From contig CP182352.1 of NCBI GenBank assembly GCA_048571215.1, positions 416,001 to 480,000 of the forward strand: 64,000 nt of DNA, written 5' to 3'. Source of the stretch: Halarcobacter sp. (GTDB lineage Bacteria > Campylobacterota > Campylobacteria > Campylobacterales > Arcobacteraceae). Position numbers and translations under genes: made by a program. Shown piece by piece: positions 5,425 to 63,307 of this stretch. The notes under the pieces were generated by a model. It saw only the letters and a list, made by a program, of their open reading frames with translations, did not search any database and was not told where the DNA came from. Within the stretch, counting starts at the first letter, position 1, and every line of letters begins with the position of its first letter.

Positions 5425-8400
5425 TTGATTGGTAAATTATTTGACTCTTTATCTTATCAAATAGAAAAAAATTTAACAGAATCTACATATATAAATGAAA
5501 CTTATATCGAAAATAAATGGAATATAATAGAAAAATTAGTTATTAGATGGACAAAACAACCTATTTTAACAGTGCTTCTATTAATTATAATTTTCATATC
5601 CAATAGTTTATTTTTATTTTTATTGAGAAATATACTAATAAAGGAATCTTATTCTTGGAATCAATCATGGGAAAAATTAGTAAATTGGCAAAATGATTTT
5701 TTATCTACACAAATTACTATTATTGCATTAATCTTTCCATTAGTTATAGGTTTTGTTGGTTTTTTAATACAAAATAAATCATCACAAAGGGCTCTTTGGA
5801 AAATTTATATGTATTATTCTGGAGTTAAAGTATTAGGATTTAGCAGTATAACACTAAGTGGAGTTATACTATTGGTTCAATTTATTAAGCCTTGGATGGA
5901 CTATCAGTTGGAAGTTGCTATTACAATTAATATTCTATGTTGGTTACTATTTAATATTTCTTTACTTGCTTGGTTTCTCTATGCTACATTTGATTTTATT
6001 TCAACAGAAAAGAGAAGTAAGGTTATTCTAAGATATTGCATAAATGAGATGATAATAAATGAAATAAAATATAGGCTTGCAAATCTATTGCCTCAAACAA
6101 TTTTTGGAAATAGTGAAGATACTCACGATAGACCTAAAGTCTATCCATTTCATTTATTTTCTGAAAAATATCAAGATTATTGCCGTATAGAGTTTTCTAA
6201 TTATAAATACGTCTATGATATAGATTTTAATTTTTTAAAGTTTGCTGGGGTTATTTGGAAATTTAGAAATAAAAATTTCAAAGAAGAAGCTCCTACATTG
6301 TATTTTCCCGTTAGTGGAATATCTAAAGCAAAAATTTATAACTTAGCATATTCAGAAAATACTAATATTAATTTTTTAGAAAAGTTTTTAATTAAAACTG
6401 CATACTCTTTTCGAAGGACATCACGATTAGAAGAATCAAATTTTGATTCGATAATACATGCTTTAATAAGTAATGTAGAAGATTCATTAAAAGAAAAAGA
6501 TGAAAGACTTTTTGAAATAGCTATAGATGAATTAGCTTATTGGATTATACAAATTTTTAAAACAGCATCATTTAAAAATGATAATAAGGAACTTGATAAC
6601 TGGATTTTATTGCCAGATGGAAATTTTTTCGGACGTTCTATAATTCAAAATCTTTCTAGAGAATTTTATAAAATTAATAAAAAATCAATTGATTTATTAT
6701 CATATTCAGATATATACTTTAGAAAAATGTGTTATTTTAATTTAAAAGTCTTTGGTTTTAAGAATGATGTCTTAGCTTCAAAAGTAATTGAAGAGTTATT
6801 ACAAAATCATTACTATTCATGGTCATTATTAATGAAAAAAATTAATAATTTAGAGAATAATGAAGAATATATAAAAACTTATATAGGTAGTTGGGAATCT
6901 TGGACATCAAGTAGTAAAATTAATTTAAAAGATGAAAAAAGTATTGATTATCTTATTGATATTTATTTAGAGCATTTACAAACATCATCTAAGCATATTA
7001 TTAGTGCTTTAAATGTTAATAATGAAAAATCTATTTTACTATCAGTAGATATGTTAATTTACTGGAATTATCAAGCTTTTCATATGTTTAATAAATCAAG
7101 AAATGAATATATATGGCAATCTAAAATTTTAGTGCCATCCGTTTTAAAAAATAATTTTGATTCGGAATATATTAATAAAGAAAAGTTGTGTGAATATATA
7201 TTTCCTAATAATTCAAAAGATGATAAAACAGCATTGGTTGTATCTTTTGAGAATTTATGGAAACAAATTTGTATTATAACAGGTATATATATTTTTTATA
7301 AACATAAAGAAGTCTTTTCTGAAAATATTAAAAAAGTTGTCTTATCACTTTTAAAACAAGAAAGAATTTTTAGTAATGATATGACAATCTTACCACAGAG
7401 AAATAAGGAAATTGCTGTAAGTTCAATTTTCGAATGTTACTTATTTAATGCATACCCATTGAGAGATATATTAAAAAGTGGTAATCCAGCTTATTTAATT
7501 GAATTGTTTGAACGTTTAAGTAAAGAAAGTATGATTTCAAATAGAGTTTATACAGATAGAAGTATTGAATTATCAAGTTTATTACAAACTATCAAATGTT
7601 TTATGATAGGAAATTCAACAAAAATTTGGAACTTATCAAAAGAGTTAAATGATTTTATAAAATCACCATTATTTGAATACGAGGCAAGAGAATCTTTTAT
7701 AAGGGAAATTAATAGTTTTAAGTATCTAGAAAATATTGATGATAAATTATTTGATGATGTTAAACTTCTATTTGGCGATGAAAATATTGAACAAAAAGTT
7801 GAAAATTATAAGACTTCAATAGATGCTATCATAAAAGATATAACTGACTATCATAATGAGGTACTTGTGAATACATCAATTGATAATCAAAAAGTAGATG
7901 AAATGAATAGATATTTTTCAAATGAAATATTCAATGACTTAGATTATATGCCTTATAGTTTATTTAGTAATATTAAATTTGATAGTTTAGAACAGAAATT
8001 TTTAAAAAAAATAAATATAAATTTTGATAAAAAATTTTTAGTAAAAGATATTAATTTTATAGATATAAATAAATATTTTGAACATGAAAACAAATATACT
8101 GTTACAGATATAAGACAGGAAATAGTAAGTTCCATTTTTGATAAGTTTTTGACTGAAATAAATATAAAAGAAGAACAAAGTTTTGATAATATTGAAAATT
8201 TATTGAATAAAATTATTGATAATGCCCAAAAATTAATAAAAAAAGATTTTGTTCCTATTGTTTTTGTTTGTAGTAATGAAATTAAGTGGATGTTAGAAAA
8301 TGAAACCAATGATAAACAATTTAAAGATATTTTAATAGAAAAATTTGATAATAAAGAGGAAAATTATATTTGTCATATAGATAATATTGAAGCATATGAA

Positions 8401-8628
8401 TTAAGTGTTAATGATCGAGATTATTTAATATTAACATCACTTGAGATGTTTGATGAGGTGATATTTAATGAATATGAAAAGGATATTTACTCTAAAATTG
8501 AGATTCAGAATAGTGAACGAAAAATTGAAAAAATCGTTTCTTTTAATTATAGAATGAAAATAAATTTTAAAAAAGTGAATTCTTATAAATATAATTTTAA
8601 AGATAAAACAAATACTCAGGTTTTCTAG
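5425..8628 (+). CDS. Large hypothetical protein with about 4 N-terminal transmembrane segments
   Basis: 1067-aa uninterrupted, very AT-rich ORF; hydrophobic segments within aa ~45-190; no recognised catalytic motif. Confidence 0.8.
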   Translation: MIGKLFDSLSYQIEKNLTESTYINETYIENKWNIIEKLVIRWTKQPILTVLLLIIIFISNSLFLFLLRNILIKESYSWNQSWEKLVNWQNDFLSTQITIIALIFPLVIGFVGFLIQNKSSQRALWKIYMYYSGVKVLGFSSITLSGVILLVQFIKPWMDYQLEVAITINILCWLLFNISLLAWFLYATFDFISTEKRSKVILRYCINEMIINEIKYRLANLLPQTIFGNSEDTHDRPKVYPFHLFSEKYQDYCRIEFSNYKYVYDIDFNFLKFAGVIWKFRNKNFKEEAPTLYFPVSGISKAKIYNLAYSENTNINFLEKFLIKTAYSFRRTSRLEESNFDSIIHALISNVEDSLKEKDERLFEIAIDELAYWIIQIFKTASFKNDNKELDNWILLPDGNFFGRSIIQNLSREFYKINKKSIDLLSYSDIYFRKMCYFNLKVFGFKNDVLASKVIEELLQNHYYSWSLLMKKINNLENNEEYIKTYIGSWESWTSSSKINLKDEKSIDYLIDIYLEHLQTSSKHIISALNVNNEKSILLSVDMLIYWNYQAFHMFNKSRNEYIWQSKILVPSVLKNNFDSEYINKEKLCEYIFPNNSKDDKTALVVSFENLWKQICIITGIYIFYKHKEVFSENIKKVVLSLLKQERIFSNDMTILPQRNKEIAVSSIFECYLFNAYPLRDILKSGNPAYLIELFERLSKESMISNRVYTDRSIELSSLLQTIKCFMIGNSTKIWNLSKELNDFIKSPLFEYEARESFIREINSFKYLENIDDKLFDDVKLLFGDENIEQKVENYKTSIDAIIKDITDYHNEVLVNTSIDNQKVDEMNRYFSNEIFNDLDYMPYSLFSNIKFDSLEQKFLKKININFDKKFLVKDINFIDINKYFEHENKYTVTDIRQEIVSSIFDKFLTEINIKEEQSFDNIENLLNKIIDNAQKLIKKDFVPIVFVCSNEIKWMLENETNDKQFKDILIEKFDNKEENYICHIDNIEAYELSVNDRDYLILTSLEMFDEVIFNEYEKDIYSKIEIQNSERKIEKIVSFNYRMKINFKKVNSYKYNFKDKTNTQVF

Positions 8629-8730
8629 TTTTGGAATAAAAGGTGTATAAGGACATTTCCATTTTTGATTTGTTTAGATTTCTAATTTCTATTTAGTAAA
8701 TTTACAAATGATAGTTTGAACTTTTTTTTT

Positions 8731-8826
8731 CCAGACTTTGATGAAGCCGGAAGTTTTGAAATAATTTTCGGAAAAGCCTGAGGACTGTTTGAGGAGAGAA
8801 AAGTCCTAAACGGACTTTTTCGACGA
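8731..8826. repeat. Left arm of a palindromic MITE/REP-like element interrupted by IS110
   Basis: ccagactttgatgaag and agttttgaaataattttc..gcctgagga pair with 10117-10179; internal hairpin aaaagtcc-taaac-ggactttt. Confidence 0.75.
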
Positions 8827-8876
8827 GTTGCCACCTTAAAAGAATATAAAAATTCCATATAAAATTTATAATAAAA

Positions 8877-9848
8877 TTAAATTTTTTCTGAATCATATGG
8901 TACATTATTTTTATATACGGCATGAGCAATAACTAATAGTTTTCTCATAATTGCTACTTGTATAACTGTAGTATGTTTTCCATTTTCTTTTAGTCTATCA
9001 TAAAACTTTCTTAATCTTTCGTTATTTCTTATTGATGTCATTGCTGGCATAAACAAAGTACCTCTACATATTTTTGAACCTGCTTTTGATATTTTTGTTT
9101 TTCCATTAACTGATATACCTGAACTTTTTTCTATTGGATCTAATCCTGCTAAAGATACTATCTGTTTTTGATTAGCATTTTTATATTGAATAAAATGTAT
9201 AAGTAATACAATTGAAGATATTTCTCCTATACCATCAATTGTTTGCAAATTATTAAATGATTGTTGAAGTTTCTCATCTTTTTTTATGATTGATTTTATT
9301 TTTTTGATAATTTTTTGTTCTTGTTTTTTTAAAAATTGATTTTGTAATTCAAACTCTTTTATCAAATAGCTTTTATCTTTTTTTGCTTTTAAAGCAGCTA
9401 TATGGTTTTTAGTTATAACTTGTTGTTTAATAATTAATTTATATCCAGAAATAAGCTCTTTTAATTCTTCTTCTATGGTATCTACAATAGGTATTTTAAT
9501 ATCTTTATCTTTAGCTGTAACAATCATTTTAGATAAAAGCTGTGCATCTTTTATATCATTTTTATTTCTATATCCCATTACTTTTGCAAAGCTAGCACTT
9601 TTTTTAGGATTTACTATAAAGCTTTTTATATTTTTGTTTGAACAAAACTGTTTTAAAAGAAATGAATAATTAGCTGTTGGTTCATAAACAAATACTAATT
9701 TATCTATCTCTTTTTTATAAAGCTTTTTTAGTTTAGAGTACAAACTTTTTATTCCATTTAAACTATTATCAATAATTAAATCTAAATCATTTATTGGAAT
9801 ATAAACATTAATTGTTGACTTACTTACATCTAATCCGATAGAATACAT
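8877..9848 (-). CDS. IS110-family DEDD recombinase/transposase
   Basis: GLDVSK, VYEPT, KNDIKDA (DEDD), GIGEISS, AGLDPIEKSSG (catalytic Ser loop), ISKAG and AIMRKLL. Confidence 0.96.
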   Translation of the reverse strand: MYSIGLDVSKSTINVYIPINDLDLIIDNSLNGIKSLYSKLKKLYKKEIDKLVFVYEPTANYSFLLKQFCSNKNIKSFIVNPKKSASFAKVMGYRNKNDIKDAQLLSKMIVTAKDKDIKIPIVDTIEEELKELISGYKLIIKQQVITKNHIAALKAKKDKSYLIKEFELQNQFLKKQEQKIIKKIKSIIKKDEKLQQSFNNLQTIDGIGEISSIVLLIHFIQYKNANQKQIVSLAGLDPIEKSSGISVNGKTKISKAGSKICRGTLFMPAMTSIRNNERLRKFYDRLKENGKHTTVIQVAIMRKLLVIAHAVYKNNVPYDSEKI

Positions 9849-9885
9849 TTCTAGAACCTTTATTTTAGGATAAAGAGTTCGTTAG

Positions 9886-10095
9886 GGTAGGATTTCTCCT
9901 ACCTGATAATTGTTATACAAACTTTAGACTTATAAAATACGAACTAGTTATAAAACTGTTCTTGTTGCCACTCAAATTTAAAGTATAACTATCAAACTCG
10001 CCATCAAGCTAATTATAAATTATTTTTTATAATTGCTTTAGTTCCGCAACGATATATTATCTTTCAAACTCTTTGGAAATATATTAACTATATTC
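9886..10095 (-). ncRNA. Predicted IS110 bridge RNA (ends approximate)
   Basis: In order on the minus strand: LTG ttgcggaac (10049-10041), hairpin, RTG ggcgagt (10002-9996), LDG agtggcaac (9972-9964), hairpin, RDG tataagt (9934-9928); TATAAT at 10111-10106. Confidence 0.85.
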
Positions 10096-10116
10096 CCTTA
10101 AATGTATTATATAAGT

Positions 10117-10250
10117 TCCGCAAGGCAGAAAACTTATTTTAAAACTAGAGGGGAGCTTTGCCTTCATCAACTCGTCTGGTTGCTTTTTGTCTTACTTTTT
10201 ACAATTAAAAAGTGAGAAAGCGAAGAGGTTTATCTCTTCAAGAGCGTAAA
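10117..10250. repeat. Right arm of the palindromic element interrupted by IS110
   Basis: tccgcaaggcagaaaacttattttaaaact and cttcatcaactcgtctgg are reverse complements of the left-arm blocks; extra hairpins cttactttt/aaaagtgag and gaagag/ctcttc follow. Confidence 0.7.
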
Positions 10251-57741: not shown

Positions 57742-58117
57742 TTAAACTGCAAAATCAGAACTAGTAATTAAGCCTGCTTCTCCATTCTCTTTTAGATAAA
57801 AGCTTGATTGTTTTAACAAGGCATATTCTTGATTTACACCTTTAGAATACACAAAGTTTGAATCTGCTGCTGCAAGGTAGATAGCTCCAACTCCTGCTTG
57901 TCCTAGAGCTATTAGAGAGCCTTCTTTGTTTTCATTTTTGTCCTAGATTGGTAAACTGTTAAAAATAGAATCATTTTCATCTATCCAAGAATTTCTATCT
58001 TTATCATATGCTCTTAACTCTTCAAATCCATCGCCAGTATTTGCTTTAAATAGTTCATTCCCATTGTCTATAGTTTAATTATTATCTTTATCTAAAGCTA
58101 AAAATTCTGCTCCTTCT
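57742..58117 (-). pseudogene. Decayed 3' fragment paralogous to 62312-63307
   Basis: Long near-identical runs with 62320-62690; TGG>TAG at 57945-43 and GGA>TAA at 58077-75; 5' part missing. Confidence 0.9.
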
Positions 58118-58296
58118 TAGTTGGAAATTCCGAGGACAGTTTCAATGGTGTTAAGTTAAGCCAAAAGTTTCCTAAATAAGATATTTAAAATACCTAAAAA
58201 ACACTTTTTTCCTTCCTTTTTTGTTTTAATACCTTTTGTATTTTTCCCTTCTTTATTGGAGGGTCTTTTAAACTTTCTATTAGGTCTTATTTGTAA

Positions 58297-58330
58297 ATTT
58301 CAAGTCTTTTTAAGGTGGCGACTCTCCCCG
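58297..58330 (+). repeat. 34-bp inverted repeat, left copy (IS110 donor-end-like)
   Basis: atttcaagtctttttaaggtggcgactctccccg, 31/34 identical to the reverse complement of 62257-62290. Confidence 0.85.
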
Positions 58331-58359
58331 TAATATCCTACCTTTGGGTGGGAGGAATT

Positions 58360-58719
58360 TTATTTAATAAACTTCTTTTGTACCTCTTCTAAACTAAGTT
58401 CCATATTCTCTTCATTTAAAAATCCATAATAATAAGTATCATTTTTATCACTTATTTCGATTATCAAAATATTTTCATTAGAATGATTTTCTACAAATTT
58501 TTCTACTGCTTCTAGTGCTGAATTTTTCCAGTATCTTTCTATTTCTGCATTATTCCCTGCATCAAAAAATAAGCAATCTTCGCACATTGAAAATAAGTAA
58601 TTTCCTGCACCTTCGTATATCTCAAAAGAGTTATTATCATTATCAAGTTTTTCATTTGTAAAAGGGCAATATAAATTAAACTTCTTATTTTCATTTGATT
58701 TTAGGGTGATTTTATTCAT
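58360..58719 (-). CDS. Hypothetical acidic protein (119 aa)
   Basis: gagga RBS; YCPF and CEDC cysteines; no family recognised. Confidence 0.75.
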   Translation of the reverse strand: MNKITLKSNENKKFNLYCPFTNEKLDNDNNSFEIYEGAGNYLFSMCEDCLFFDAGNNAEIERYWKNSALEAVEKFVENHSNENILIIEISDKNDTYYYGFLNEENMELSLEEVQKKFIK

Positions 58720-58974
58720 CGTATATCCTCTATTTTGATTTTTGAATTATACTATTTGATTCTTTTATTTATATCAAATGGAGTTGTTTATTAATTATAC
58801 AAGTTATAAGAACAAAAAATAAAAGAAATTTTGAAATTTTCTGTATATTCCTTACCATGGGTATTAGGTATACAAAAAAAATTATTTAAAGAAACCCTCT
58901 AATTATAGCTTAAATATATTTTTGTTATTTTATTGGGTTGGGTGATATTATTTCATAGGAGGAGAGTTATTAAT

Positions 58975-60174
58975 TTGGATAAAAAGAAAAAACTCACGAT
59001 AAAAAATGTGTATAAGGTTTTTGGAGATAAACCTAAGAAGGCTTTAAAAATGCTTGAAAGTGGTTTATCAAAAGAAGAGATTTTTGAAAAAACAAATATG
59101 ACTATTGGTGTTCAAGATGCAAGTTTTGAAATCAACGAAGGTGAAATATTTGTAATTATGGGACTCTCAGGTTCAGGGAAATCAACACTAGTAAGACTGT
59201 TAAATAGACTAATAGAGCCAACTTCAGGTCAGATATTTGTTGATGAAACTGATATAACAAATTTGAATGACAAAGAATTGATTGATATAAGACGAAATAA
59301 AATTTCAATGGTATTTCAATCTTTTGCACTAATGCCACATATGAACATTATAGATAATACTTCATTTGGGCTAGAACTAAGTGGAATTAGTAAAGAAGAT
59401 AGATATAAAAAAGCACAAGCTGCACTAGATCAAGTTGGATTATCACATCATGCTTTATCTTATCCAGATGAATTAAGTGGTGGTATGCAACAAAGAGTAG
59501 GATTGGCAAGAGCTTTAGCAAATGATCCAGATATTATGCTTATGAATGAAGCTTTTTCAGCCCTGGATCCTCTTATAAGAACTGAAATGCAAGATGAACT
59601 TTTGACTCTACAAAGTGAACATCAAAGAACTATTGTATTTATTTCTCATGATTTAGATGAAGCTATTAGAATTGGTGATAGAATTGCAATTATGCAAAAT
59701 GGTGAGATATCTCAAGTGGGAACTCCTGAAGAGATTATCAATAACCCTGCAAACGATTATGTAAAATCATTTTTTAAAGGCGTTGATGTGACAACAGTTT
59801 TAACTGCATCACATATTGCTAAAAAAAATTATCCTACAATTATAAAAAAAGATGGTTTTGGAATTAATTCGGCAATTCAATATATCAATGATTATGATTT
59901 TGATTTTGCATATTATCTTACAAAAGATAATAAGTATTTAGGAGTACTTACCCTTGAAGCTTTAAAAGAACAGAAAAAAATAAATGGAAATCTAGAAGAC
60001 TCTTTAATAGAACAAGAGGTTGTAAATGAAAATGATTCTATTGCTGATTTTATAAATATTATCGCAGAATCATTTTTCCCTATTGCAGTTGTAGCTGATA
60101 ATGGGAAATATAAAGGGGTTATTTCAAAACGAACTCTATTAAAAACAATTGATGAAGGAGCTATAAATGGCTAG
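58975..60174 (+). CDS. proV: Glycine betaine/proline ABC transporter ATPase with CBS domains (Walker B D>N)
   Basis: [32 protein letters not shown] and SHDLDEA; TTG start after aggagg. Confidence 0.93.
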
Positions 60175-61243
60175 TGATCCATGGGGAAATGCTTCAACGG
60201 CACAAGCAGATAAATCATCAAGTGTTGATTGGTCACATGTTGATCCTGATACAACTTCAGTACCATCTTTTGATATAAAGAATCCTTTTGATCATAGTAT
60301 TATTCCTTTTGATTCTTGGGTAAATAGTGGAATTAATTGGATAGTAGAAAACTTTAGGGATTTCTTTATATCTGCAAAAGCACCCGTTGATGTGATTTTA
60401 AGATTTATTGAAACTTTTTTACAATCCCTTTCACCTTATGTGGTAATTGGATTTTTTGTTTTACTTGCTTTACAAGTATCTAGTAAGAAGATGGCTTTTG
60501 GAACCTTTGTTTCACTTGCTTTACAAGTATCTAGTAAGAAGATGGCTTTTGGAACCTTTGTTTCACTTGTATTTATTGGATTTATTGGTGCTTGGGATGC
60601 TAGTATGACCACTTTAGCATTGGTTATTACTTCTGTGCTCTTTTCCGTTTTAATTGGTTTACCACTTGGAATTTGGAGTGCAAAAAGTGATATGGTAGAA
60701 AAAATATTAAGACCTATTTTAGATGGTATGCAGACAACACCTGCCTTTGTATATTTAATACCTATTGTTATGTTATTTGGAATAGGAAATGTTCCAGGTG
60801 TAATAGTAACTATTATTTTTGCTTTACCTCCATTAATAAGACTTACAAATTTAGGTATTAGACAAGTACCTGCTGACTTGATTGAAGCATCTAGATCATT
60901 TGGGGCAAGTTCATCTCAAATGCTTTTTAAAGTACAACTTCCAGTTGCTATGCCTACAATTATGGCAGGGATAAATCAAACATTAATGCTTTCATTATCT
61001 ATGGTTGTAATCGCTTCAATGATTGCAGTTGGAGGATTAGGTCAAATGGTTCTACGAGGTATTGGAAGACTTGATATTGGTCTTGCAGCTGTTGGTGGTA
61101 TAGGAATTGTTATCCTAGCAGTAATACTAGATAGAATAACTCAAGAAATGGGTAAAAAAGATAAAAAGAAAAAAAATAAATGGTATGAACAAGGACCAGT
61201 TGGTTTAGTTTATAATTTAATAAAAAAGGAGAAAAAAATATGA
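60167..61243 (+). CDS. proW: Glycine betaine/proline ABC permease (internal 17-aa duplication)
   Basis: [24 protein letters not shown] and [19 protein letters not shown]. Confidence 0.94.
60463..60564 (+). repeat. Exact 51-bp tandem duplication inside proW
   Basis: acttgctttacaagtatctagtaagaagatggcttttggaacctttgtttc occurs twice (60463-60513, 60514-60564). Confidence 0.97.
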
Positions 61244-62208
61244 AAAAAATATTGATTGCTTTGATTGCTATTTTTTTAACATCAAATTTATTTGGTGCTA
61301 AGGTTACATTTTTAAGAACAAGTATCGCAGAAGAAGGTTTTCAAATGTATATCGCTGCTGATATAGTGAAAAAATTGGGTTATGATGTTGAAATAACAAA
61401 TGATGTTAGTTATGAAGTTGCTTATCAAACAATAGCACAAAATGCAAAAAGCAAAGATGCTTATATTATGGCAGCGGCATGGATTCCTCTTCATAATTCA
61501 AAAATCAAAGGTGCTGGGGGAAGTAAAAAGATTGCAATCATAGGTTCATATATAAAAAATTGTGCACAAGGTTATCTAATAGATAAAAAAACAGCAGATA
61601 AATATAATATAAAATATATCAATGATTTAAAAGATCCAAAAATCGCTAAACTATTTGATTCAAATGGTGATGGGAAAGCTGACTTAACAGGTTGTTCTGC
61701 TGGTTGGGGTTGTGAAAAAGTAATTGAGTATCAATTAGACGCTTTTGGATTAAGAGATAGAATTACACATAATCAAGGAGAATATGCATCAATTATATCT
61801 GATACAATTGCAAGATATAAAAGTGGAAAACCAATTTTATATTATACTTGGACTCCATATTGGGTAAGTGGAAAATTAGTTCCTGGTAAAGATACTGTAT
61901 TTTTACAAGTGACTCATTCAGCTCATCCTGTAACAAAATCTACAAAGCTTCCAAATGGTGCTGATTATGGATTTAATGTAAATACTCAAAAATTTGCAGC
62001 AAATGCCTCTTTAGCTAAAAACTATAAAGATATTGCAAAATTATTAGAAATAATGAGATTAGATGTAAATGACATAAGTGGTGAAAATATGATTATGGAA
62101 CAAGGTCAAAATAAAGAAGCAGATATAAAAAGACATGCTCAAATGTGGCTTAAAAGTAATGCAGATAAAGTAAATAAATGGATTGCTGAAGCAAAAGAAG
62201 CTAAATAA
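61240..62208 (+). CDS. proX: Glycine betaine/proline ABC substrate-binding protein
   Basis: [24 protein letters not shown] and YTWTPYW. Confidence 0.94.
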
Positions 62209-62219
62209 AAACAATTAAT

Positions 62220-62250
62220 TAATTCCTACAAATTATATTTGTAGGAATTA
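62220..62250. terminator. Terminator after proX
   Basis: taattcctacaaat-tat-atttgtaggaatta. Confidence 0.8.
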
Positions 62251-62256
62251 AAAATT

Positions 62257-62290
62257 CGGGGAGAGTTGCCACCTTAAAAAAACTTCAAAT
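62257..62290 (-). repeat. 34-bp inverted repeat, right copy (IS110 donor-end-like)
   Basis: cggggagagttgccaccttaaaaaaacttcaaat; 62263-62279 is identical to the IS junction 8825-8841. Confidence 0.85.
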
Positions 62291-62311: not shown

Positions 62312-63307
62312 CTACACCACAAAATCAGAACTAGTAACTAATCCTGCTTCCCCATTCTCTTTTAGATAAAAGCTTGATTGTTTTAACAAGGCATACTCTT
62401 GATTTACACCTTTAGAATACACAAAGTTTGAATCAGCAGCTGCAAGGTAGATAGCTCCAACTCCTGCTTGTCCTAGAGCTATTAGAGAGCCCTCTTTGTT
62501 TTCATTTTTTTCCCAGATTAATAAGCTGTTAAAAATAGAATCATTTTCATCAATCCATGAATTTCCATCTTCATCATATACTTTTAACTCTTCAAATCCA
62601 TCGCCAGTATTTGCTCCAAAGAGTTCATTTCCATTATCTATAGTTCCATTATTGTCTTTATCAATAGCAAGAAATCCTGACCCCTCTTTTAATTGTGGAA
62701 TTAGTTCATTCTCTCCATCACTGTTTAAATCAAATTCAAAACTTAATTTGTTACTTATATTATCAAATGAACTAAGATTAGAATTATAGTTTATAATTAG
62801 TGGATCCAAATAGTTTACTTTTTTTGAAACAAAGGTTTCTTCAAAGCTTTCTGCAAACTTTTGAGAAAAAGAGATATCTAGGTCTATATTTATCTGACCT
62901 TTATTTGTTTTAACAAAGGCTTGGGTTTTGAAGTTTATATTACTTTCTTGATTGTACTGTTTTTTGTACGTAAAAGTTCTTTCTTCTATTTGTAGTTGTC
63001 TTATATTGTTTGATGAAGTTTCATTTTTTGGTTCTAGTTTAAAATCTTTATCTTTTGTAAAATTACTAATAAGTATCTCTAGGATTTTTTTATTTATTCT
63101 ATCTTGATGACTTAGTTCTTTTTCACTAGATAGCAATATTTTTTCAAGTTTTGTAGTTTCTATTTTTACCATATTTTGTCTATGGATTTCATTTTTTATA
63201 TCTTTTTTTGATTCAATTAAAACTGATTTAAAGCTATTAGTGCTTTCTTGTTCTATATTAAAACTAGTTTTTGCATTTATATTTATATTGGCTGTTTCAA
63301 TTTTCAT
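62312..63307 (-). CDS. Hypothetical protein with a C-terminal Dx[DN]xDG (EF-hand/VCBS-like) domain
   Basis: DPLIIN, FDLNSDG, LAIDKDNNGTIDNGNELFG and YDEDGNSWIDEND. Confidence 0.85.
   Translation of the reverse strand: MKIETANININAKTSFNIEQESTNSFKSVLIESKKDIKNEIHRQNMVKIETTKLEKILLSSEKELSHQDRINKKILEILISNFTKDKDFKLEPKNETSSNNIRQLQIEERTFTYKKQYNQESNINFKTQAFVKTNKGQINIDLDISFSQKFAESFEETFVSKKVNYLDPLIINYNSNLSSFDNISNKLSFEFDLNSDGENELIPQLKEGSGFLAIDKDNNGTIDNGNELFGANTGDGFEELKVYDEDGNSWIDENDSIFNSLLIWEKNENKEGSLIALGQAGVGAIYLAAADSNFVYSKGVNQEYALLKQSSFYLKENGEAGLVTSSDFVV

What the first reader, a model, noticed from the sequence alone, without database searches (positions are those of the whole stretch)
58297..62290. 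proVWX cargo bracketed by inverted 34-bp sites that match the IS110 donor end
Seen: 58297-58330 and 62257-62290 are inverted repeats (31/34) enclosing 3.9 kb (119-aa ORF plus proVWX), with no transposase inside. The right copy shares 17/17 bases (gagttgccaccttaaaa) with the IS110 junction about 53 kb away. Read inward, each site is ggtggc(a/g)-AC-tctcc: a donor-left half followed by a half that matches the right target guide (actcgcc) at 6/7. Inference: they are either scars of earlier insertions of this or a sibling IS110, or sites through which the bridge recombinase captured or could invert the osmoprotection cassette in trans. They could also be inner ends of an unrelated eroded composite transposon.
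Basis: partly seen in the sequence, partly recalled or inferred. Interest (0 to 1): 0.72.

Follow-up and report, generated by a model that had tools for sequence, protein, structure and literature searches.

The report
IS110 scars bracketing a borrowed operon
Two short matching repeats mark the edges of a salt-stress transporter operon acquired from another genus; each is a leftover end of a related jumping gene fused to a repeat that belongs to a different, little-studied DNA-cutting enzyme, which is the likelier agent of the capture.

Summary
The 34-bp inverted pair is real (31/34). Each site is an IS110 right junction (left donor–AC core–right target), but not from the window's IS110. The donor half is shared by a whole IS110 clade. 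The outer arm of the left site matches a sibling element (clade C) at 23/23 against 15/23 for the window's element. Clade C inserts into the GGGGWSA terminal repeats (TIRs) of Y1/HUH 'TIRYT' transposases (6 of 8 copies), so the inner halves are TIR, not operon DNA. The enclosed 3.9 kb (ORF119+proVWX) is a horizontal acquisition: 93–94% identical to a native block in another genus, against 75–76% for neighbouring core genes. Its edges fall at the TIR outer ends, about 15 bp from the IS110 core; a third TIR marks the break in a host gene. Best reading: TIR ends, probably joined by a TIRYT enzyme, captured the block; the IS110 parts are passengers. Inversion by the resident IS110 is unlikely: neither site has a left-target or right-donor half, and no inverted form was seen in a second species or four runs. 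The block later moved between species by recombination outside the sites.

The parts
58290..58322 (+). Left site, outer arm: last 33 bp of an IS110 clade-C right end (left donor + AC core)
   Evidence: 39/40 identical to the right end of a complete 332-aa IS110 in G003:C16; 23/23 upstream of the shared donor, against 15/23 for the window IS110
58323..58336 (+). Left site, inner arm: outer half of a TIRYT-type TIR (GGGGAGAG on the minus strand plus AT-rich outer end), GGGG end facing the cargo
   Evidence: Fits GGGGWSAS (Di Nocera 2013) and the AATTCCGGGGACA family found in 22 of 130 family genomes
62265..62290 (-). Right site, outer arm: 26 bp of an IS110 clade-C-type right end (left donor + AC core)
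   Evidence: 12-14 of 15 to six clade-C ends, 10 of 15 to the window IS110; 8/8 to the left donor guide of the two resident IS110 types
62251..62264 (+). Right site, inner arm: outer half of the same TIR variant, abutting the donor-derived DNA
   Evidence: Homology to G053/G072 stops at 62250 and the TIR begins at 62251
58337..62250 (.). Horizontally acquired block: ORF119 with its terminator hairpin, proV, proW, proX and the proX terminator
   Evidence: 58359-62250 is 93.6%, 93.0% and 89.2% identical to native blocks in G053, G072, G103; the tree nests G000/G002 inside genus g30, AU p = 0.005. The left 22 bp (58337-58358) align only loosely, and only to G114
58360..58719 (-). 119-aa ORF of unknown function; a second, 71% identical copy lies elsewhere in the genome
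58933..62208 (+). proV, proW, proX (glycine betaine/proline ABC importer)
   Evidence: Pfam PF00005+PF00571, PF00528, PF04069; gene names inferred from these domains
58125..58142 (+). Third, degenerate TIR with its outer end at the break point of the truncated gene copy; with the left site it bounds a ~210-bp collapsed TIR element
58143..58291 (-). 3' end and terminal repeat of an IS4-family element, joined to the IS110 end through a 3-bp microhomology
   Evidence: 78% to the end of a 445-aa DDE_Tnp_1/Nterm_IS4 element in G003
57743..58118 (-). A': truncated copy of the 3' end of the host gene at 62312-63307, a direct repeat flanking the insertion
   Evidence: 90.8% over 369 bp; host-lineage origin: 79% to G017, at most 74% to g30 homologues
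62312..63307 (-). Host gene A (331 aa, no Pfam hit above cut-off); in relatives without the insertion it lies next to, or one ORF from, mnmE
8825..10120 (-). The window's IS110 (type A; 3 copies in the genome): recombinase 8877-9848, bridge RNA about 9860-10115. A relative of the sites, not their source

Best explanation
Each site is a hybrid: the right end of a clade-C IS110 fused at its AC core to the TIR of a TIRYT (Y1/HUH) element into which that IS110 inserts [shown by comparison]. The insertion keeps the GGGGWSAG core and outer end of the TIR, so the hybrid still behaves as a TIR after the IS110 body is lost [inferred from hybrids found in TIR dimers and clusters]. The ORF119-proVWX block came from genus g30 [shown]. 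It was joined at both ends to TIR outer ends, and a third TIR end was joined to host gene A, giving a composite of TIR element, cargo and TIR element [break points shown; the enzyme, a TIRYT transposase acting on single strands, is inferred]. The IS4 and IS110 bodies inside the flanking elements were deleted [shown for the left side by a microhomology joint]. The fixed block then spread between species by homologous recombination in flanking genes [shown for G000/G002]. The sites are now most likely inert.
For: Hybrid nature. The right target guide predicts the flank at 6 or 7 of 7 bases in 21 of 26 parsed IS110 rows (34 examined, 8 not parsed, 2 duplicates). Clade-C targets: 6 of 8 copies sit in a TIR core, and two reconstructed empty sites equal native TIRs seen. 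TIRYT context: a Y1 gene flanked by an inverted GGGGTCAG pair in G103; this genome's only Y1 gene has such a TIR upstream. Hybrids acting as TIRs: a 52-bp back-to-back pair in G038; a native+hybrid dimer repeated on both sides of a gene in L244 (61/65); 9 of 57 orphan hybrids have a TIR 5-75 bp upstream, against 0 of 49 with IS110 attached and about 0.3 expected. Break points: 3 of 3 TIR outer ends in the locus coincide with a change of ancestry. The same inward-facing geometry occurs in L274, L285 and L160, and TIR outer ends border swapped cassettes in L285/G127/G111. Transfer.
Against: No donor genome carrying TIRs at these positions was found (5 g30 genomes with the block or part of it), so the capture intermediate is missing. 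The left edge is blurred by 22 bp that only G114 resembles. G114 also has an AAGGTGG hairpin arm at about the place of the left site, so short homology may have helped. The outer TIR of the right-hand element is absent. Only 6 of 128 hybrid sites had a Y1 gene within 1.2 kb, and this genome's Y1 ORF is shorter than a close homologue (177 vs about 224 aa). The TCTCCCC variant fits no guide seen perfectly, and no native TIR of that variant was found. The L285 region also holds integron-like cassettes, which confounds. The papers read report no test of TIRYT activity (passages only).
Confidence: 0.55

Rival explanations
1. Passive scars: two clade-C IS110 copies inserted independently, in opposite orientation, into TIRs that already flanked the block. 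The block moved by homologous or illegitimate recombination, and the IS bodies eroded, as in decayed composite transposons. No enzyme acts on the sites as a pair.
For: The left arm is joined to an IS4 remnant by a 3-bp microhomology, a typical deletion joint. Eroded clade-C ends of many lengths occur in this genome and others. 47 of 128 hybrid sites still carry the recombinase, and 38 more are too near a contig end to tell. The second transfer had its ends outside the sites.
Against: It does not explain why both edges of the foreign block and the break in gene A all fall at TIR outer ends. It also does not explain why both sites share a variant found in only 5 of 161 distinct sites, 3 of them this pair.
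Confidence: 0.28
2. An IS110 bridge recombinase (clade C in the past, or the resident types A/B in trans) captured the block or can invert it, using half-matches: the donor guide on the outer arm and the target guide on the inner arm.
For: Both sites match the donor guides at 7-8 of 8 and the right target guide at 6/7 (type A) or 7/8 (type C). Seven intact A/B copies are present. One-sided donor matches are reported at boundaries of expanded IS110 loci (bioRxiv 10.64898/2026.08.14.744561). The donor loop alone supports excision in vitro (PMC13626964). Right junctions can be transferred directly to a new target (bioRxiv 10.1101/2025.10.25.684509).
Against: Neither site has a left-target or right-donor half. 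Characterised inversion needs a full donor and a full target (PMC11208160), and excision between proper junctions is about 2,000-fold slower than insertion. IS110 exchanges strands at the core, but the 14 bp between core and cargo are TIR, absent from the donors. No complete clade-C element is in this genome. Orientation is the same in G002 and in contigs of 4 of 4 runs, with no strand-changing joint; contigs drop rare variants, and these copies share a recent origin.
Confidence: 0.12
3. The whole 34-mer is a native TIR variant, and the IS110 clade's donor end was copied from it; these two sites never held an IS110.
For: Native-looking TIRs upstream of Y1 genes in G053/G072 continue GGGGACAG with TCGCC, like the hybrid. 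Several orphan sites have no recognisable IS110 arm.
Against: The left site carries 23 further bases identical to a clade-C end that lies just downstream of a recombinase gene. IS110 types with unrelated targets share the donor half.
Confidence: 0.05

Closest known systems
IS110 bridge recombinases, IS621 type (PMC11208160; PMC13626964)
   Same: Each site has the right-half junction anatomy LD-core-RT; guides in the upstream non-coding RNA predict the flanks; like IS621 and ISPpu9 with REPs, clade C targets a repeat linked to a Y1 transposase.
   Different: No recombinase, bridge RNA or left-half junction is in or beside the unit; the two right halves are inverted; the target is a TIRYT TIR, not a GTAG REP; clade C often has different first core bases at its two junctions (CC left, AC right).
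TIRYT / TIRtrons and TIR repeat families (PMC3733652; TnpA-Y1 subclass 2.1 in bioRxiv 10.1101/279083)
   Same: GGGGWSAS consensus; TIR pairs around Y1 genes in relatives; dimers and clusters of TIRs.
   Different: In the passages read, TIRs flank only the transposase gene. Here the GGGG ends face a 3.9-kb chromosomal cargo, and the inner half of each TIR has been replaced by an IS110 end.
Expanded, cargo-bearing IS110 loci with one-sided donor matches (bioRxiv 10.64898/2026.08.14.744561)
   Same: Foreign DNA bounded by left-donor-only sequences; short right-end repeats beside IS110 copies.
   Different: Those loci contain the recombinase and grow inside the element; here both boundaries are inverted left-donor junctions, 14 bp of TIR separate core and cargo, and no recombinase is inside.
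Decayed composite transposons such as ISApl1-mcr-1-ISApl1 (PMC5821093; search listing only)
   Same: A chromosomal block from another genus left between short remains of two mobile elements.
   Different: The remains are Y1 TIR/IS110 hybrids, inverted; no target-site duplication was found; a 369-bp host direct repeat flanks the region.

Membership tests
IS110 right junction (LD-core-RT) | Left half matches the left donor guide and the element's right end | tested here: met
   7-8 of 8 to donor guides; 39/40 to a complete element's end
IS110 right junction (LD-core-RT) | Right half matches a right target guide | tested here: met
   7/8 to clade C, 6/7 to type A; no guide with a perfect match among the 16 guide types parsed
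IS110 element or IS110-bounded cargo element | Left junction (LT-core-RD) in direct orientation at the other end | tested here: not met
   Both sites are right junctions, inverted; no LT or RD half beside them
IS110 element or IS110-bounded cargo element | DEDD recombinase and bridge RNA in the unit | tested here: not met
   None within 56.7-63.4 kb; no complete clade-C copy in the genome
IS110 element or IS110-bounded cargo element | RNP recombines the sites | not testable with these tools
   Needs an assay; no inverted joint in 4 runs
Scar of the window's own IS110 (type A) | Outer arm matches the type-A right end | tested here: not met
   15/23 and 10/15, against 23/23 and 12-14/15 for clade C
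TIRYT TIR | GGGGWSAS motif | tested here: met
   GGGGAGAG at 62258 (+) and 58329 (-); consensus
TIRYT TIR | The same repeat family flanks HUH/Y1 transposase genes | tested here: met
   PF01797 genes with TIRs in G103, G053, G072, G002, G000 and a homologue with TIRs in G068
TIRtron (autonomous) | Y1 gene between TIRs whose GGGG ends point outward | tested here: not met
   No Y1 gene in the locus; the GGGG ends point at the cargo. Only 58125-58336 has the outward geometry, and it holds IS remnants
TnpA-Y1 subclass 2.1 | Phylogenetic placement and C-terminal HTH of the associated Y1 | not tested
   Only the Pfam family and the TIR consensus were checked
DDE insertion sequence terminal repeat | The repeat is the end of a DDE transposase element | tested here: not met
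   Wherever a transposase adjoins the motif it is IS110; the IS4 end is a different sequence

The most novel reading that the evidence does not exclude
TIRYT (subclass 2.1-type HUH) transposases, whose role is unknown, capture chromosomal blocks by joining TIR outer ends to foreign DNA, building composite elements and cassette arrays. An IS110 clade parasitises these TIRs and leaves its right end as a working TIR variant that is then copied without the IS. The proVWX block is a natural product of such capture across genera, and its sites may be substrates for both enzymes.
Probability: 0.35. Interest if true: 0.75.

Novelty: new variant of a known kind. Interest (0 to 1): 0.5.

Why it matters
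If TIR outer ends are the joints, the locus gives a defined substrate, donor and break points for asking what TIR-associated Y1 transposases do, which the 2013 description left untested. It also gives a natural series of IS110 elements with one donor and many retargeted guides, some with unequal cores at the two junctions, useful for bridge-RNA rules. If the sites are only scars, it is an ordinary decayed insertion around a transferred osmoprotectant importer, and a warning that a donor-half match does not identify the responsible IS110.

Tried and rejected
Link to the window's IS110: rejected on the outer arms. DDE terminal repeat: rejected. A circle from the donor genus carrying a piece of gene A and integrating by homology: not supported, since A and A' are of host-lineage origin; how the 369-bp repeat arose is unresolved. 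My first reading that the locus is old and vertically shared with G002 (91% overall) was wrong: the block is 95-100% identical in most bins while mnmE is 85%, and G002's sister G017 lacks it. Search for the TCTCCCC variant in all species genomes: 11 stretches; 2 (L143, L146) are one contig with the same pair and may not be independent of the handles; the other 9 lack the T-tract/IS110-end context and were set aside as chance. Phylum search: the hybrid was in 7 of 401 genomes; it did not settle whether it exists without the IS110 clade. Joints between 57.8 and 62.5-63.3 kb come from paralogue mapping and were not counted as excision. Earlier-findings look-ups returned nothing. Literature: 'TIRYT' gave 3 papers; searches listed nothing on IS110 targeting TIRYT TIRs or on TIRYT cargo capture, judged from titles and abstract starts; the library lacks most subscription papers, and bioRxiv supplements were closed. 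The bridge RNA of the G003 element is masked by Ns, so clade-C guides come from G082, G122, G051 and others.
Full report
Observation. The pair is real: 31/34, beyond shuffles (best 24-26 of 34 in 20 shuffles; 3 copies of the 17-mer against 0.01 expected). It encloses a 119-aa ORF and three ABC-importer genes read as proVWX. The genome is 28.5% G+C; the title of the one related named record returned (L143) points to the Arcobacter family.

The motif in this genome. AAGGTGGCRAC occurs 16 times. Seven copies are right ends of intact IS110 elements: three of the window's type (A) and four of a 63% identical type (B). Nine are orphans followed by T(G/C)(A/T)(C/T)(C/T)C; one of these lies behind an IS110 C-terminal fragment. 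So the 17-bp match is not specific to the window's element.

The outer arms. In relatives, a large IS110 clade shares this left donor and its guide, while the target guides vary. The right target guide predicts the flank at 6 or 7 of 7 bases in 21 of 26 parsed rows (34 examined, 8 not parsed, 2 duplicates). The left site is 39/40 identical to the end of a complete element in G003, here called clade C. Upstream of the shared donor it matches that end at 23/23 and type A at 15/23. The right site matches six clade-C ends at 12-14/15 and type A at 10/15. Left of the arm lies the 3' end of an IS4-family element, joined through 3 shared bases: a deletion joint.

The inner arms. Clade-C right target guides read GGGACAGT, GGGTCAGT or close variants. 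Six of 8 clade-C copies sit in a GGG(A/T)(C/G)A core, and the reconstructed empty sites of two equal native repeats seen elsewhere. These repeats fit the TIR consensus of TIR-associated tyrosine transposases: GGGGWSAS (PMC3733652, passages; bioRxiv 10.1101/279083, passages). In G103 an inverted pair flanks a Y1 gene, and this genome's only Y1 gene has one upstream. Each site is therefore IS110 end + AC + outer half of a TIR. Hybrids are common: 128 distinct sites in the metagenome and phylum loci, 47 with the recombinase attached, 38 too near a contig end, 6 near a Y1 gene. Orphans behave like TIRs: a 52-bp back-to-back pair, a dimer copied on both sides of a gene, and a TIR just upstream in 9 of 57 orphans against 0 of 49 attached ones (sites with under 200 bp upstream or over 40% G+C were dropped). 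Both sites share the TCTCCC variant, seen in 5 of 161 distinct sites, 3 of them this pair.

The cargo is foreign. Four of 184 family genomes, all in genus g30, have ORF119 next to proV, besides G000 and G002. The block 58359-62250 is 93.6, 93.0 and 89.2% identical to G053, G072 and G103, where it lies before a tRNA-like gene (recognised by eye) with no such sites. Neighbouring yidC-mnmE is 75-76% identical to the same genomes, and proVWX of ten other own-genus species is 73-76% identical. The proVWX tree nests G000/G002 in g30 (AU p = 0.005), while mnmE separates the genera (midpoint root). Relatives without the insertion have mnmE next to, or one ORF from, gene A.

Break points. Donor homology ends at 62250 and the TIR starts at 62251. 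On the left, clear homology starts at 58359 and loose likeness to G114 reaches 58337, where the TIR's outer end stops. The truncated gene copy A' ends where a third TIR starts, at 58125. All three changes of ancestry are at TIR outer ends; none is at the IS110 core, about 15 bp away. The arrangement reads: A', collapsed TIR element, cargo, remains of a second element, gene A. The same inward geometry occurs in L274, L285 and L160, and TIR ends border swapped cassettes in three related sequences, although integron-like cassettes confound that case. Against this: the left edge is blurred, G114 has a hairpin arm resembling the donor half at that place, the far TIR on the right is missing, and no donor with TIRs in place was found.

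Later history. G000 and G002 are 85% identical in mnmE but 95-100% in most bins from 57.0 to 62.3 kb (two bins at 85%), falling off inside flanking genes. The block thus crossed species again by recombination outside the sites.

Can IS110 act on the sites? Each matches half of each loop (donor guide 7-8/8; right target guide 6/7 for A, 7/8 for C) and lacks the other halves. Characterised inversion uses a full donor and a full target (PMC11208160, passages). Excision between proper junctions is about 2,000-fold slower than insertion, though the donor loop alone can support it (PMC13626964, passages). Half-matches and direct transfer are reported (bioRxiv 10.64898/2026.08.14.744561, parts 1-3 of 7; bioRxiv 10.1101/2025.10.25.684509, abstract and one section), so activity is not excluded. 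No complete clade-C copy is in this genome. G002 has a change next to the left core. Contigs from 4 of 4 laid runs (3 studies; 4 of 24 listed) bridge both sites in the reference orientation, with no strand-changing joint; contigs hide rare forms, and the best holders may be the source sample.

Verdict. Site identity as IS110-C/TIR hybrids: about 0.9. Foreign origin of the cargo: about 0.95. Capture through TIR ends by a TIRYT enzyme: 0.55; passive scars 0.28; IS110-driven capture or inversion 0.12; native TIR variant 0.05. The unit is not an IS110 element and not an autonomous TIRtron; it looks like a decayed composite whose ends are TIRs. I found no report of IS110 targeting TIRYT TIRs or of TIR-bounded cargo in the searches (listings only; PMC5581495 read as passages). 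Supplements were not read; the insertion tables of the IS110 papers may already hold clade-C targets. New variant of a known kind; interest 0.5.

Noticed in passing
G000:C1:2553800-2560950, 807400-811900 and 3395300-3396900: In the first two stretches, arrays of short ORF pairs that look like orphan toxin-tip/immunity cassettes share an N-terminal segment, several start at a TIR, and one array ends at the genome's only Y1 gene; the third stretch holds three more TIR-type sites (ORFs not listed). Suggests TIRYT-built cassette arrays.
   Followed up: partly
L058, L060, L057, L031 (clade-C IS110): Unequal cores: left junction CC, right junction AC, with each guide matching its junction form; may bear on directionality.
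   Followed up: partly
window 8724-8829 and 10115-10247: The type-A IS110 sits inside a structured repeat of about 240 bp with roughly 20 copies in the genome; type B inserts into another part of a similar repeat.
   Followed up: partly
window 58143-58160; L018, L101, L273, L276, L295: IS4-family ends repeatedly abut TIR cores, so this IS4 group also seems to favour TIRYT TIRs.
   Followed up: no
L076: An IS110 of the same donor clade is inserted in a sequence like another repeat end found beside several orphan sites in this genome.
   Followed up: no
window 60447-60548: In-frame 51-bp tandem duplication in proW (17 residues), absent in G002 and runs X5, X6.
   Followed up: partly
window 59546-59548: proV Walker B reads LMNEAF where the other proV homologue whose sequence was printed (L010) has LMDEAF; runs X1 and X6 show G at 59545 in some contigs. 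May impair the ATPase; not checked in donors.
   Followed up: no
window 57743-58118 and 62313-62688: The A'/A direct repeat could allow RecA-dependent loss or amplification of a 4570-bp unit; no such joint was seen in 4 runs.
   Followed up: partly
G000:C1:1709000-1722800 and L285/G127/G111: The region downstream of guaB is a variable cassette region with TIRs, IS remnants and integron-like cassettes in several family genomes.
   Followed up: partly
window 5425-8628: 1067-aa ORF with no Pfam hit, beside the IS110.
   Followed up: no
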